Of a DNA stretch of 41,292 nucleotides, positions 23,853-25,478 are shown piece by piece (positions within the stretch are counted from its first letter, which is position 1; every line of letters starts with the position of its first letter). The DNA is from a virus (taxonomy: Duplodnaviria > Heunggongvirae > Uroviricota > Caudoviricetes). The notes below the pieces were generated by a model. It made no database searches, had not been told where the DNA came from, and was given only the letters and a program-made list of their open reading frames with translations. The stretch is taken from IMG/VR virus record IMGVR_UViG_2718217862_000001, one strand, 5' to 3'. Position numbers and translations under genes: made by a program.

Positions 23853-24314
23853 CTATCTGCACTGCTCATTAATATACTTCTGGGTTCCTTCCAGTTGTTT
23901 TTGCATTGTGATCAGCCTCTCTCTGAGGGTGAAATAATCCCGTTCAGCGGTGTCTGCCAGTCGGGGGCTGGTTGCATTATCCACGCCGGAGGCGGTGGTG
24001 GCTTCACGCACTGACTGACAGACTGCTTTGATGTGCAACCGACGACGACCAGCGGCAACATCAGCGCGCAGAGTTTCATTTTCAGCTTTCGCATTGGCTA
24101 ATTCTCTCGAGTACTTTGCATCGAGTGCAGCAACATCACGCTGACGCTGCTGCATGTCAGCGATAGTGGCGATCGCCTGCTTCAGCTCACTGACTTTTTT
24201 ATCACGCTGTTCTTTGTAGGCGATGGCGTTATCACGGTAATGATTGACCGCCCACGACAGGCAGACGATGATGCAGATAACCAAAGCATAAATAATCGCG
24301 GCGACTCTGCTCAC
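23853..24314 (-). CDS. Rz: Spanin, inner membrane subunit Rz
   Basis: Very similar to lambda Rz as recalled (...[21 protein letters not shown]...QKYINEQCR); GTG start overlapping endolysin stop. Confidence 0.9.
23912..24094 (-). CDS. Rz1: Spanin, outer membrane lipoprotein Rz1 (embedded in Rz, +1 frame)
   Basis: ...[30 protein letters not shown]... matches lambda Rz1 as recalled. Confidence 0.85.
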
Positions 24315-24844
24315 TGCTCTATCCCCCAACAGGCTAATGCGCTTTCCTGGTCACGACGAATAACCTGTCCATAGCAGTTATTTGAACGTATGCGGCAATC
24401 GCGCCCACCATCTTTTATCCACCAGCGAATCGCCTCGCATGCGCCCTTACGATCACCGGCATTCAGCCGCTTATAAAACGTCGACGGGAAACACTTACCG
24501 GGGCCAATGTTATAGGGACAGAATGACGCTATACCCGCTTTTTGTGGTTCGGTCAGTAGTACTTTAATATTGCGCTCCACCCATGCCAGCGCCTTATCAC
24601 GCTCAATGGCGTTGACCTGGTCGCATTTTTCCTTCGACAGTTTCATACCGGGAAAAACGGGTTTTCCATCCACCATCGTGGCACCCCGACAGATGGTCCA
24701 GATGCCGGACCCATCGCGGTATGCCGTTGTGTGGTTACCTTCTTTTTCATCCAGAAACTGGTCGAGAATATCAGGCGCGGGCGCACCGACGGCAATCAGT
24801 GCCAGAACGGCAGCCGACAGGCCGTATCTGATTTTTGCGTTCAT
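24311..24844 (-). CDS. R: SAR endolysin (phage lysozyme with N-terminal signal-arrest-release helix)
   Basis: 177 aa, N-terminal [17 protein letters not shown]-8-D-5-T lysozyme catalytic pattern. Confidence 0.85.
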
Positions 24845-24907
24845 GGATATTTATCAGGATTTATCGGTTTCTGCCCACGGACAGGTTTATCTGTTCCGGT
24901 CAGTGAC

Positions 24908-25258
24908 TTAAGGTTGTGATTCCGGAGGAGTCTTCAGAGAACCAGTAATTCTTCCCGGTAGCTTTCCTTTGTAGGTTATCCATACATTCTGCGCCTCTAA
25001 AATTACGGGGCGCTTTTCCGGCGACTGCTCATCCCCTTCACATAACCCGGCAGCAACATCCAGGAAGACCTGTCTGATACTCATTCTGGCTGCTGCCTCA
25101 TAAAACTCCAGCGCGGCACCTTCAACACGGTCCAGCGAGATGTCCAGGTCAAAAATTTCACCGTCAAAGCGTTTTTTGTCCCGTAACGCTAAAGTTACCG
25201 TAACTTTATTCTCAAAATTGCGGATCCCTTTCACAATCAGTTCATAGTTTTGAGTCAT
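24908..25258 (-). CDS. DUF1327 / YdfR-like protein inserted between holin and endolysin
   Basis: 116 aa, resembles recalled Qin YdfR; RBS GGGGAGAG. Confidence 0.6.
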   Translation of the reverse strand: MTQNYELIVKGIRNFENKVTVTLALRDKKRFDGEIFDLDISLDRVEGAALEFYEAAARMSIRQVFLDVAAGLCEGDEQSPEKRPVILEAQNVWITYKGKLPGRITGSLKTPPESQP

Positions 25259-25262
25259 TGAA

Positions 25263-25478
25263 TTACTCTCCCCGTGCCGCCTTACGACGGTCCTCTCTGA
25301 TTTTGAAATACAGGTTAGTCAGATATGTCAGCAGCCCAAACAGCAGACTCCCCAGCACGCCTATTGCCGCCCACTGAGACGGGGAAACCCTGTCCAGCAA
25401 CTGCAGGAACCAGTAGCCCGTTCCCACCGCTGACGTGGTGTATGACACACCTGTTGTGATTTTTTCCATCTGGTCCAT
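25263..25478 (-). CDS. S: Pinholin (phage 21 S-like) with dual start
   Basis: 71 aa from MDQMEK..., two TM segments, C-terminal [14 protein letters not shown] matches S21 as recalled. Confidence 0.8.

What the first reader, a model, noticed from the sequence alone, without database searches (positions are those of the whole stretch)
24311..25478. Pinholin with dual start and SAR endolysin, separated by a DUF1327 gene
The holin begins MDQMEK (two Met three codons apart, the S21-type holin/antiholin pair) and the endolysin has an N-terminal SAR helix, so lysis should follow the phage 21 route rather than the lambda route. A YdfR-like gene of unknown function is inserted between them and is co-transcribed.
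Basis: partly seen in the sequence, partly recalled or inferred. Interest (0 to 1): 0.35.

Follow-up and report, generated by a model that had tools for sequence, protein, structure and literature searches.

The report
Ordinary phage-21-type lysis cassette with YdfR
This is the standard cell-bursting gene set of a lambda-like E. coli prophage (small-hole holin, membrane-tethered lysozyme, spanins) with an optional extra gene, ydfR, in the middle; it is found in more than half of complete E. coli genomes and is already annotated this way.

Summary
On the minus strand lie S (25263-25478, 71 aa, MDQMEK...), ydfR/DUF1327 (24908-25258), R lysozyme (24311-24844) and Rz/Rz1, with bor opposite. The same 2.7 kb is 100% identical to four deposited phage records that carry this annotation. 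At least 80% of the 1168 bp is present in 3004 of 5426 complete E. coli genomes. K-12 Qin (essQ-ydfR-rrrQ-rzpQ) has the same layout.

The phage-21 route (pinholin plus SAR endolysin) is well supported by homology and sequence features, and it is already published as a prediction for this holin/endolysin type.

One part of the interpretation does not hold as stated. Met1 and Met4 are conserved across the family, and a hairpin sequesters the Met1 Shine-Dalgarno. However, the extension here is M-D-Q, without the basic residue that gives S21-71 its antiholin character.

ydfR is an optional insert. About half of otherwise equivalent cassettes lack it, and R then starts at the same position, 4 nt after the S stop. 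The family is small and restricted to Escherichia/Shigella. Its only experimental lead is that K-12 YdfR residues 1-72 bind RNase E.

Verdict: already known, low interest.

The parts
25517..25545 (-). Terminator-like hairpin (12 bp stem followed by a T run) about 40 nt upstream of the holin start. It is the last of five such hairpins between Q and S.
   Evidence: 18 terminator-like sites in 23300-29000 against 5.4 expected. The upstream T-run is conserved in the MDQ/MYQ holin loci.
25486..25502 (-). RNA hairpin CUUCCG-GAUAA-CGGGAG that pairs the Shine-Dalgarno (GGGAG, 25486-25490) serving Met1. A second purine run (GGGG, 25480-25483) stays unpaired, 10 nt before Met4.
   Evidence: The hairpin is present in the MFE and centroid folds. 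P(SD paired) is 1.00 against 0.44 in shuffles, and 1 of 200 shuffles reaches it. Equivalent hairpins with different stem sequences occur in every clade of the family.
25263..25478 (-). S: class II holin of the phage 21 S family, 71 aa (pinholin by homology). In-frame starts at Met1 (25478) and Met4 (25469). TMD1 is weakly hydrophobic, TMD2 carries G40/G43-S44/G48, and the C-terminus is basic.
   Evidence: PF04971 E 9e-33. 77% identical to an S21-like 71-aa protein and 79% to K-12 EssQ. 97% identical to 933W S. Hydropathy and composition.
24908..25258 (-). ydfR: DUF1327 protein, 116 aa, soluble and acidic (pI 5.2), with no TMD or signal peptide. Its ATG lies 4 nt after the S stop and uses the SD GGGGAGAG inside the last S codons.
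   Evidence: PF07041 E 5e-42. PHROG families are all 'unknown function'. Residues 1-74 are 80% identical to K-12 YdfR. The N-terminal domain was modelled as three beta strands plus a helix at pLDDT 88.
24311..24844 (-). R: GH24 lysozyme, 177 aa, with an N-terminal signal-anchor-release-like segment (residues about 1-26) and a catalytic E35/D44/T50 triad. It is 94% identical to K-12 RrrQ.
   Evidence: PF00959. PDB sequence hits include R21 (3hde/3hdf) and RrrD (4zpu). Motif and hydropathy. Identity to RrrQ. N-terminal survey.
23853..24314 (-). Rz i-spanin, 153 aa. The GTG start overlaps the R stop.
   Evidence: PF03245 E 9e-50. The same coordinates are annotated in ON470612.
23912..24094 (-). 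Rz1 o-spanin lipoprotein, 60 aa, embedded in the +1 frame of Rz.
   Evidence: PF06085 E 3e-20.
23528..23821 (+). bor lipoprotein gene, convergent with the cassette.
   Evidence: PF06291 E 4e-30. Annotated in ON470612.
27823..28644 (-). Q antiterminator gene. This is context: the regulator expected to drive the late transcript through the terminators to S.
   Evidence: PF03589 E 1e-54.

Best explanation
This is the late-operon lysis cassette of a lambdoid E. coli prophage, of the phage 21 / 933W / Qin type.

Inferred pathway:
1. Q-modified RNA polymerase reads from downstream of Q through five intrinsic-terminator-like hairpins into S-ydfR-R-Rz/Rz1 as one transcript.
2. S is translated from Met1 and Met4. 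A hairpin that pairs the Met1 Shine-Dalgarno limits Met1 starts.
3. S accumulates in the inner membrane. Its weakly hydrophobic TMD1 leaves the bilayer, and TMD2 (a Gly/Ser face) oligomerises into small pinholes that collapse the membrane potential.
4. R has meanwhile been exported by Sec and held inactive by its N-terminal signal anchor. Depolarisation releases it, it refolds, and it cuts the murein.
5. Rz/Rz1 then disrupt the outer membrane.

The identities, anatomy and conservation are shown here. The membrane steps are inferred from homology to S21/R21.

The longer S product of this allele (M-D-Q extension) is probably not a charge-retarded antiholin. It more likely behaves like the shorter form.

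YdfR is a dispensable cytoplasmic accessory protein made together with the lysis proteins. Its most likely activity (about 0.35) is binding the catalytic half of RNase E and/or RNA through its conserved N-terminal domain of three beta strands and a helix. That would adjust RNA turnover late in infection. It would not act on the membrane or the wall.
For: Family assignments:
- Pfam matches for S, YdfR, R, Rz, Rz1, bor and Q.
- The 2.7 kb block is 100% identical to ON470607, ON470612, ON470619 and ON470621, annotated 'holin/antiholin S | YdfR family | lysozyme R | Rz'.
- At least 80% of the 1168 bp is present in 3004 of 5426 complete E. coli genomes, and K-12 Qin has the same order.

Holin:
- 77-79% identical to S21-like and EssQ proteins, and 97% to 933W S.
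- TMD1 is 55% Gly/Ala/Ser/Thr with mean hydropathy 0.36. TMD2 reads [15 protein letters not shown].

Endolysin:
- E35-x8-D44-x5-T50 triad, no Cys in residues 1-30, and sequence hits to R21 and RrrD structures.
- Pro follows both AXA-like sites (GA-P-A-P), and this is conserved as GA[PS]AP in relatives.
- Across about 220 loci this holin family is always paired with one of two SAR-type lysozymes.

Published predictions: pinholin plus SAR endolysin for this type (PMC8136144, PMC10462455).

Transcription: no promoter-like or terminator-like site on the minus strand inside 24311-25478.

Dual start: Met1 and Met4 are conserved in all clades, and the SD hairpin is present in all clades.

ydfR is optional:
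- It is present after the holin in 104 loci and absent in 119.
- It is never found in the MYR, MLR, MHR or MYQMDK holin clades.
- Where it is absent and nothing else fills the slot, R starts at the ydfR position.

YdfR function: K-12 YdfR residues 1-72 bind the RNase E N-terminal half, and the protein co-purifies RNA (PMC13232886). That segment is 80% identical here.
Against: - Nothing here is an experiment on this allele. Pinhole size, membrane tethering of R and its release are all inferred.
- The hydrophobic core of the R signal (VLALIAV) could also serve as an ordinary signal peptide.
- Overproduced K-12 YdfR changed few transcripts (PMC13232886), so the RNase E link may have little consequence.
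- K-12 YdfR and this YdfR have unrelated C-terminal parts.
- The conserved Met1 and hairpin argue that the longer S product matters, yet I have no positive evidence for what it does without a basic residue.
Confidence: 0.85

Rival explanations
1. The 71-aa and 68-aa S products form a true holin/antiholin pair as in phage 21. The longer form would delay TMD1 exit and hold the shorter form in inactive dimers until triggering.
For: Met1 and Met4 are conserved in every clade of the family. A hairpin that pairs the Met1 SD is conserved with different stem sequences, which is the classical device for setting the ratio of two starts. Three extra polar residues could still slow passage of the N-terminus.
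Against: The antiholin character of S21-71 is attributed to its extra basic residue (PMC9636201, PMC13056207). Here the extension is M-D-Q, with net charge -1. The 933W clade has Y/D/N/F/H-Q and no K or R, whereas the other clades have K2, R3 or K3. Residue 2 varies among alleles that are 97-100% identical, which suggests weak constraint.
Confidence: 0.25
2. YdfR is a dedicated lysis regulator: a cytoplasmic factor that tunes holin triggering or endolysin release. P1 LydB and T4 RIII are comparable soluble regulators.
For: It sits between S and R, starts 4 nt after the S stop using the SD inside S, and must be made at the same time as the lysis proteins. It is found at this position in thousands of E. 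coli prophages.
Against: About half of cassettes with the same holin and endolysin lack it. The slot also holds unrelated ORFs and reverse-strand genes. Distant homologues with only the N-terminal domain lie between tail genes I and J or just after Q, not between S and R. YdfR has no TMD or amphipathic membrane segment. The only experimental partner found so far is RNase E (PMC13232886).
Confidence: 0.15
3. The N-terminus of R is an ordinary cleavable Sec signal peptide. On this view R is a secreted endolysin and not a membrane-tethered SAR enzyme.
For: It has a typical n-region (K4, R6), an h-region ([11 protein letters not shown]) and a small-residue c-region (G-A-P-A-P).
Against: Pro occupies +1 of both possible AXA sites, and Pro at +1 is known to block signal peptidase I (established knowledge). 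This feature is conserved as GA[PS]AP. The catalytic Glu35 follows within about 10 residues, as in R21. R is always partnered with a pinholin-family holin. A constitutively released lysozyme would lyse cells prematurely.
Confidence: 0.08
4. ydfR is a passenger 'moron' with no role in the lytic cycle. It would be kept because it benefits the lysogen, or simply by hitch-hiking.
For: It is optional and restricted to one genus: 319 clusters at 90% identity, 86 representatives among 1.84 billion proteins, and only Escherichia/Shigella among GTDB species genomes. Its C-termini are modular and there are fusions. PMC13232886 reports expression-database data showing up-regulation of the K-12 cluster under cold stress.
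Against: It has no promoter-like site and no terminator of its own, unlike typical morons. Its tight translational junction with S ties its expression to the late operon. PMC13232886 found almost no ydfR reads in uninduced K-12.
Confidence: 0.25

Closest known systems
E. coli K-12 Qin prophage lysis genes essQ-ydfR-rrrQ-rzpQ
   Same: Same gene order and strand logic. RrrQ is 94% identical to this R, EssQ is 79% identical to this S, and YdfR residues 1-74 are 80% identical.
   Different: The K-12 holin starts MKSMDK, with a Lys in the extension. K-12 YdfR is 103 aa with an unrelated C-terminal tail and overlaps the rrrQ start. Its spanin is the DUF2514 type (RzpQ), not lambda-type Rz/Rz1.
Phage 21 S21 (pinholin S21-68 / antiholin S21-71) with R21 (SAR endolysin)
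   Same: Same holin family (PF04971, about 77% identity to an S21-like 71-aa protein). Met1/Met4 dual start, SD hairpin, two-TMD layout and Gly/Ser face in TMD2 are shared. The endolysin has an N-terminal SAR-type anchor, an E-x8-D-x5-T triad at the same residue numbers, and no Cys in the anchor.
   Different: The extension is M-D-Q instead of M-K-S. The endolysin belongs to a different subfamily: it matches R21 in the PDB search only at E about 1e-15, and R21-type endolysins in the loci are about 30-35% identical to it. S and R are directly adjacent where ydfR is absent, whereas here ydfR sits between them.
Stx phage 933W / H-19B lysis genes S and R
   Same: S is 97% identical, and the endolysin has the same RrrQ-type N-terminus. 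Both are published as predicted pinholin plus SAR endolysin (PMC8136144, PMC10462455). The 933W clade also lacks a basic residue in the extension (MYQMEK).
   Different: This prophage carries no stx or nanS-p between Q and S in the stretch examined. It has two STnc100-family sRNA copies, a tRNA-Met and small ORFs instead. Many 933W-type cassettes have S directly followed by R.
Phage lambda S105/S107-R-Rz/Rz1
   Same: Late-operon position after Q. Dual-start holin gene with an SD-sequestering stem-loop. Embedded Rz/Rz1 spanin of the same Pfam families, and bor downstream.
   Different: Lambda S is a three-TMD large-hole holin of another family, and lambda R is a cytoplasmic transglycosylase with no export signal. 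No gene lies between S and R.

Membership tests
Phage 21 S holin family (PF04971; pinholins) | Sequence membership in the family | tested here: met
   PF04971 E 9e-33 covering residues 5-67. 77% identical to an S21-like protein and 97% to 933W S.
Phage 21 S holin family (PF04971; pinholins) | Two TMDs. TMD1 is weakly hydrophobic (SAR-like), TMD2 has a Gly/Ser helix face, and the C-terminus is short and basic. | tested here: met
   TMD1 (residues 8-27) has mean hydropathy 0.36 and is 55% G/A/S/T. TMD2 reads [15 protein letters not shown] with mean hydropathy 1.2-2.1. The tail is [13 protein letters not shown].
Phage 21 S holin family (PF04971; pinholins) | Forms nanometre-scale holes that depolarise the membrane but do not pass a cytoplasmic endolysin | not testable with these tools
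   This needs lysis assays with lambda R, or microscopy or biochemistry.
Dual-start holin/antiholin pair (S21-68 / S21-71) | Two in-frame start codons three codons apart, conserved | tested here: met
   ATG at 25478 and at 25469. Both are present in all holin loci and all clades, with one GTG at position 1.
Dual-start holin/antiholin pair (S21-68 / S21-71) | RNA structure at the ribosome-binding site that sets the ratio of the two starts | tested here: met
   The hairpin at 25486-25502 pairs the SD. P(paired) is 1.00 against 0.44 in shuffles. Analogous hairpins with other stem sequences occur in all clades. A column-based covariation count was not possible.
Dual-start holin/antiholin pair (S21-68 / S21-71) | The longer product carries an extra basic residue that retards TMD1 exit (PMC9636201, PMC13056207) | tested here: not met
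   The extension is Met-Asp-Gln, with no K or R and net charge -1. Clade relatives have Y/N/F/H at position 2.
Dual-start holin/antiholin pair (S21-68 / S21-71) | Both products are made, and the longer one inhibits the shorter | not testable with these tools
   This needs start-codon mutants, immunoblots and lysis curves.
SAR endolysin, R21 type | GH24 lysozyme domain with the E-x8-D/C-x5-T catalytic triad | tested here: met
   PF00959 E 1.5e-23. E35, D44 and T50 are present. Sequence hits to R21 3hde/3hdf and RrrD 4zpu.
SAR endolysin, R21 type | N-terminal basic residues followed by a weakly hydrophobic TMD rich in Gly/Ala/Ser, directly preceding the catalytic domain | tested here: met
   K4 and R6, then [18 protein letters not shown]. 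The best 18-residue window has 8 G/A/S/T and mean hydropathy 1.76. The R21-type value is 2.27.
SAR endolysin, R21 type | The signal is not cleaved by signal peptidase | tested here: inconclusive
   Pro lies at +1 of both AXA-like sites, conserved as GA[PS]AP. This argues against cleavage, but no predictor or experiment was run.
SAR endolysin, R21 type | No regulatory Cys in the SAR segment (this separates the R21 type from the P1 Lyz type) | tested here: met
   The first Cys is C52. There is none in residues 1-30.
SAR endolysin, R21 type | Membrane-tethered and inactive until the membrane potential collapses | not testable with these tools
   This needs fractionation and energy-poison experiments.
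YdfR / DUF1327 | Sequence membership, with conservation of the RNase E-binding segment (K-12 YdfR residues 1-72) | tested here: met
   PF07041 E 5e-42. Residues 1-74 are 80% identical to K-12 YdfR, and the C-terminal parts are unrelated. Binding itself was not tested here (PMC13232886 for K-12).
Two-component spanin Rz/Rz1 (embedded architecture) | An i-spanin with an N-terminal TMD, and an o-spanin lipoprotein gene embedded in its +1 frame | tested here: met
   PF03245 E 9e-50 and PF06085 E 3e-20. Rz1 (23912-24094) lies inside Rz (23853-24314). The lipobox reads VVGC.

The most novel reading that the evidence does not exclude
YdfR is a phage-encoded modulator of RNase E, placed in the lysis cassette so that it appears exactly when S, R and Rz are made. 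It would alter decay or processing of the late transcript (or of host RNA) and so set lysis timing or yield. This would operate in a pinholin clade (933W/MxQ type) that has lost the charge-based antiholin and may need another timing input.
Probability: 0.12. Interest if true: 0.5.

Novelty: already known. Interest (0 to 1): 0.13.

Why it matters
As it stands this is a correct annotation of a very common prophage module. It adds nothing new to lysis biology.

Two small open points are worth a specialist's note. First, the commonest E. coli/Stx-phage pinholin alleles keep the dual start and its RNA hairpin but lack the basic residue thought to make the longer product an antiholin. Second, YdfR is present next to the holin in thousands of E. 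coli prophages and still has no function, apart from a 2026 report that it binds RNase E.

Both points can be tested with simple lysis-curve and deletion experiments in K-12 lysogens.

Tried and rejected
- **Sequence search of YdfR against PDB chains.** No hit, either as a single sequence (E up to 10) or as a profile of the N-terminal domain (best E 0.88).
- **Full-length AlphaFold model of YdfR.** It was poor (pLDDT 58, C-terminal half below 50). Foldseek against the PDB and BFVD gave nothing at E <= 0.001.
- **N-terminal-domain model.** It was good (pLDDT 88), but Foldseek against the PDB again gave only sub-structure matches at E >= 0.05, such as the beta-meander-plus-helix inside tyrosine phosphatases. 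The early weak PUR-repeat hits did not recur, so I dropped the idea of a PUR/Whirly-like RNA-binding fold.
- **Curated libraries.** PADLOC and NCBIfam gave nothing for YdfR. All PHROG matches are 'unknown function'.
- **Alignment-based covariation for the SD hairpin.** This failed because the MAFFT alignment is not structural (0 predicted pairs). I used per-sequence folding with shuffles instead. That is significant for the window sequence but only for 14 of 49 distinct sequences.
- **Searching loci with an alignment of distant DUF1327 proteins.** One single-protein scan found nothing.
- **Primary pinholin papers** (PMC1750887, PMC2168629, PMC2776468). Not held, so the charge argument rests on two secondary sources.
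- **Paradis-Bleau 2014 envelope screen.** The main text does not mention ydfR.
- **The longer GTG-started ORF (25583, 106 aa).** Rejected as the holin start. It would run through the terminator-like hairpin, and the most populous database clusters of this holin are 71 aa.
- **The weak hairpin in the ydfR-R spacer.** No better than shuffles (z = -0.06).
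Full report
**1. Observation**

The finding's coordinates are exact. All the genes lie on the minus strand.

| Feature | Coordinates | Product |
|---|---|---|
| S (holin) | 25263-25478 | 71 aa, [10 protein letters not shown]...; Met1 at 25478, Met4 at 25469 |
| ydfR | 24908-25258 | 116 aa |
| R (lysozyme) | 24311-24844 | 177 aa |
| Rz | 23853-24314 | 153 aa; its GTG overlaps the R stop |
| Rz1 | 23912-24094 | 60 aa, embedded in Rz |
| bor | 23528-23821 (plus strand) | lipoprotein |

Pfam assigns S to PF04971 'phage P21 holin S' (E 9e-33), ydfR to DUF1327 (5e-42), R to phage lysozyme (1.5e-23), Rz to PF03245, Rz1 to PF06085 and bor to PF06291. The ydfR ATG lies 4 nt after the S stop (GAG TAA TTCA ATG), so its Shine-Dalgarno (GGGGAGAG) is inside the last S codons. 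R starts 63 nt after the ydfR stop.

**2. How common it is**

The 2.7 kb from bor to the DUF1737 gene is 100% identical to four deposited E. coli phage records: ON470607, ON470612, ON470619 and ON470621. They are annotated 'holin/antiholin component S | putative YdfR family protein | lysozyme R | endopeptidase Rz'.

In complete E. coli genomes, 4411 of 5426 have a match to the 1168 bp, and 3004 hold at least 80% of it in one place. The usual RefSeq annotation is 'class II holin family protein | YdfR family protein | lysozyme'. K-12 Qin has the same order, essQ-ydfR-rrrQ-rzpQ. RrrQ is 94% identical to this R, EssQ is 79% identical to this S, and YdfR is 80% identical over residues 1-74 only. 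S is 97% identical to 933W S.

The surrounding window is a lambdoid prophage. Q lies at 27823-28644, and terminase, HK97-type head genes and lambda-type tail genes lie downstream of the cassette.

**3. Holin**

- The protein is 77% identical to an S21-like 71-aa protein.
- It has a weakly hydrophobic first segment (residues 8-27: mean hydropathy 0.36, 55% Gly/Ala/Ser/Thr).
- Its second [18 protein letters not shown], has the Gly/Ser spacing of S21.
- Its tail is basic.
- Two papers already classify the 933W-type S as a pinholin of the P21 family (PMC10462455, PMC8136144).

Membership in the pinholin family is therefore secure by sequence. Hole size cannot be tested here.

**4. Dual start**

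N-termini were collected from two sources: 120 database cluster representatives, and the holin loci fetched from IMG/VR. Both show an M-x-x-M-[DE]-K pattern in every clade.

| Basic residue in the extension | No basic residue |
|---|---|
| MKS (S21, EssD/EssQ) | MYQ (933W; the commonest in its clade) |
| MYR | MDQ (this window) |
| MLR | MNQ |
| MHR | MFQ |
| MMK | MHQ |

The upstream ATG is therefore conserved, not accidental.

Upstream of Met1 the RNA folds into CUUCCG-GAUAA-CGGGAG (25486-25502), which pairs the SD GGGAG. In the window sequence the SD is paired with probability 1.00, against 0.44 in shuffles of the upstream part, and 1 of 200 shuffles reaches that value. Other clades have a hairpin at the same place built from other sequences, for example CACC-AUCCG/CGGAG-GUG, CACCCGC/GCGAGGUG, CACCCAC/GUGAGGUG and CACUUCCCU/AGGAGGUG. 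A second purine run (GGGG here) stays free, 10 nt before Met4. This matches the classical design in which structure limits initiation at the first start.

The caveat is that the shuffle test is significant for only 14 of 49 distinct sequences, because C-rich upstream regions pair with G-rich SDs easily. A column-based covariation count was also not possible.

**5.

Two sources state that the antiholin character of S21-71, like that of lambda S107, comes from the extra basic residue in the extension, which hinders exit of TMD1 (PMC9636201, PMC13056207). The primary papers were not available.

The extension here is Met-Asp-Gln, so it adds a negative charge. By the positive-inside logic (established knowledge), that should not hinder movement of the N-terminus to the periplasm. 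Among alleles 97-100% identical to this one, residue 2 is Y in 59 loci, D in 13 and N in 8, which points to weak constraint.

The dual start is real. The 'holin/antiholin pair' is not supported for this allele, and I put it at about 0.25.

**6. Endolysin**

- R has the E35-x8-D44-x5-T50 triad at the same residue numbers as R21, and its first Cys is C52.
- It matches the R21 (3hde/3hdf) and RrrD (4zpu) structures by sequence at E about 1e-15.
- Its N-terminus has K4 and R6, then [18 protein letters not shown]. The best 18-residue window has mean hydropathy 1.76 with 8 of 18 Gly/Ala/Ser/Thr residues. An R21-type N-terminus scores 2.27 with 11 of 18.
- Both AXA-like sites are followed by Pro (A-V-G-A|P and A-P-A|P). 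Pro at +1 blocks signal peptidase I (established knowledge). The motif is conserved as GA[PS]AP in relatives.
- Across the loci, S21-family holins are paired only with this RrrQ/933W-type lysozyme or with the R21 type, both of which carry such N-termini.
- Pinto et al. predicted SAR endolysin plus pinholin for 99% of Stx phages (PMC8136144).

I accept the SAR reading at about 0.85. A cleavable signal peptide remains a minor rival.

**7. Transcription**

No sigma-70-like promoter and no terminator-like site lies on the minus strand inside 24311-25478. A strong terminator-like hairpin (25517-25545) sits just upstream of S, and four more lie between Q and S. In all there are 18 terminator-like sites in 23300-29000, against 5.4 expected. 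This fits a late transcript that needs Q antitermination and then runs through S-ydfR-R-Rz. The spacer between ydfR and R has no significant structure (z = -0.06).

R has no SD-like motif in the 20 nt before its ATG. In loci without ydfR and with nothing else in the slot, R starts 4 nt after the S stop and so inherits the SD inside S. Inserting ydfR may therefore lower R translation. This is inference only.

**8. ydfR is optional and the slot is a hot spot**

Among IMG/VR loci with enough downstream sequence, ydfR follows the holin in 104 and is absent in 119.

| Holin N-terminus | Loci with ydfR |
|---|---|
| MDQ | 11 of 11 |
| MYQMEK | 36 of 56 |
| MKS | 57 of 92 |
| MNQ | 0 of 7 |
| MYR, MLR, MHR, MYQMDK | 0 of 57 |

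The same slot can hold:

- a 186-aa ORF of PHROG 1085/36381 (L019);
- a 268-aa fusion of the YdfR domain to that module (L036);
- reverse-strand ORFs of PHROG 2411 and 1853.

All of these are of unknown function. YdfR therefore cannot be a required part of the pinholin/SAR pathway.

**9. What YdfR is**

YdfR is soluble and acidic (pI 5.2), with no TMD.

The family is tiny:
- 319 clusters at 90% identity;
- 86 representatives at 50% identity among 1.84 billion proteins;
- among GTDB species genomes, only Escherichia and Shigella, apart from two MAG contigs labelled Veillonella parvula and Bacillota, which I take to be misassigned.

The conserved unit is the N-terminal 72-74 residues. K-12 YdfR and this protein share only that part. 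Distant relatives are stand-alone proteins of 72-76 aa or tandem duplicates, and all of them match DUF1327.

That domain models confidently as three beta strands plus a long helix (pLDDT 88, pTM 0.72). It has no informative structural neighbour and no PDB sequence relative. PADLOC and NCBIfam give nothing.

Distant N-domain genes occupy other positions. Two lie between tail genes I and J (L241, L254). One lies directly after a Q-like gene (L253). One lies about 550 nt before holin-like genes (L252). The domain is therefore not tied to the S-R junction.

The only experimental data concern K-12 YdfR (PMC13232886):
- Residues 1-72 were isolated three times in a two-hybrid screen.
- The protein binds RNase E(1-597) and co-purifies RNase E(1-598).
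- It brings down DNase-resistant nucleic acid.
- When overproduced it changes few transcripts.

I therefore commit, at about 0.35, to a late-expressed accessory protein that acts on RNase E or RNA. The rivals are a passenger gene (0.25) and a dedicated lysis regulator (0.15). That paper also cites an envelope-integrity phenotype for a ydfR mutant, which I could not trace in the main text of the cited screen. In a Keio-type insertion this could be a polar effect on the downstream SAR lysozyme gene. That is my inference and is untested.

**10. Comparison, novelty and verdict**

The closest known systems are K-12 Qin essQ-ydfR-rrrQ, phage 21 S21/R21 and 933W S/R.

| Part | Membership verdict |
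|---|---|
| S | S21 holin family: yes |
| R | GH24 SAR-type endolysin, R21 type (no Cys in the anchor): yes by sequence features; tethering and release untested |
| S products | S21-type antiholin pair: one defining feature (the basic residue) tested and not met |
| YdfR | DUF1327: yes |

The cassette is already known and already annotated in identical public records. Interest is low (0.13). The residual questions are the function of the non-basic longer S product and the function of YdfR.

Noticed in passing
window 26596-26784 and 27060-27253 (minus strand): Two tandem copies of the STnc100 sRNA family (Rfam RF02076, 132 and 138 bits) lie between Q and S, about 467 nt apart. Each ends in a strong terminator-like hairpin.
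   Followed up: partly
window 25517-25545, 26605-26626, 26856-26875, 27069-27088, 27723-27742 (minus strand): Five intrinsic-terminator-like hairpins lie on the late-transcript strand between Q and the holin start. The region 23300-29000 has 18 such sites against 5.4 expected from shuffles. Expression of S should therefore depend strictly on Q antitermination.
   Followed up: partly
window 24845-24907 and 25259-25262: R has no Shine-Dalgarno-like motif in the 20 nt before its ATG. ydfR takes the strong SD (GGGGAGAG) inside the last S codons. In loci without ydfR, R starts at that same position, 4 nt after the S stop.
   Followed up: partly
L036 3221-4027; L019 2846-3406; K-12 locus L250 2031-2342: YdfR is modular. 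The N-terminal 72-74 residues are shared, but the C-terminal parts differ between K-12 and this window. Some alleles fuse the domain to a roughly 150-aa module (PHROG 1085) that also occurs alone in the same slot behind a different N-terminus.
   Followed up: partly
L241 4001-4231, L254 3001-3231, L252 and L253 3001-3219: Distant DUF1327 genes with only the N-terminal domain (72-76 aa) lie between tail genes I and J, or between Q and the lysis genes. Each is followed by a convergent small ORF of 93-110 aa. These partner ORFs are not homologous across contexts.
   Followed up: partly
window 27604-27679 (minus strand): A tRNA-Met (CAT) gene lies just downstream of Q.
   Followed up: no
window 26235-26570 (plus strand): A 111-aa ORF on the opposite strand between Q and S is annotated 'anti-adapter protein IraM' in the identical GenBank record. 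It has no Pfam match at E <= 0.001.
   Followed up: partly
window 22652-23101 (minus strand): An HNH endonuclease gene (PF01844) lies directly upstream of the small terminase subunit gene (22022-22504). This is the arrangement typical of HK97-like packaging modules.
   Followed up: no
window 25628-25989 (minus strand): A DUF1737 gene (25786-25989) and an overlapping 53-aa ORF (25628-25789; PHROG families of unknown function) sit just upstream of the terminator that precedes S.
   Followed up: no
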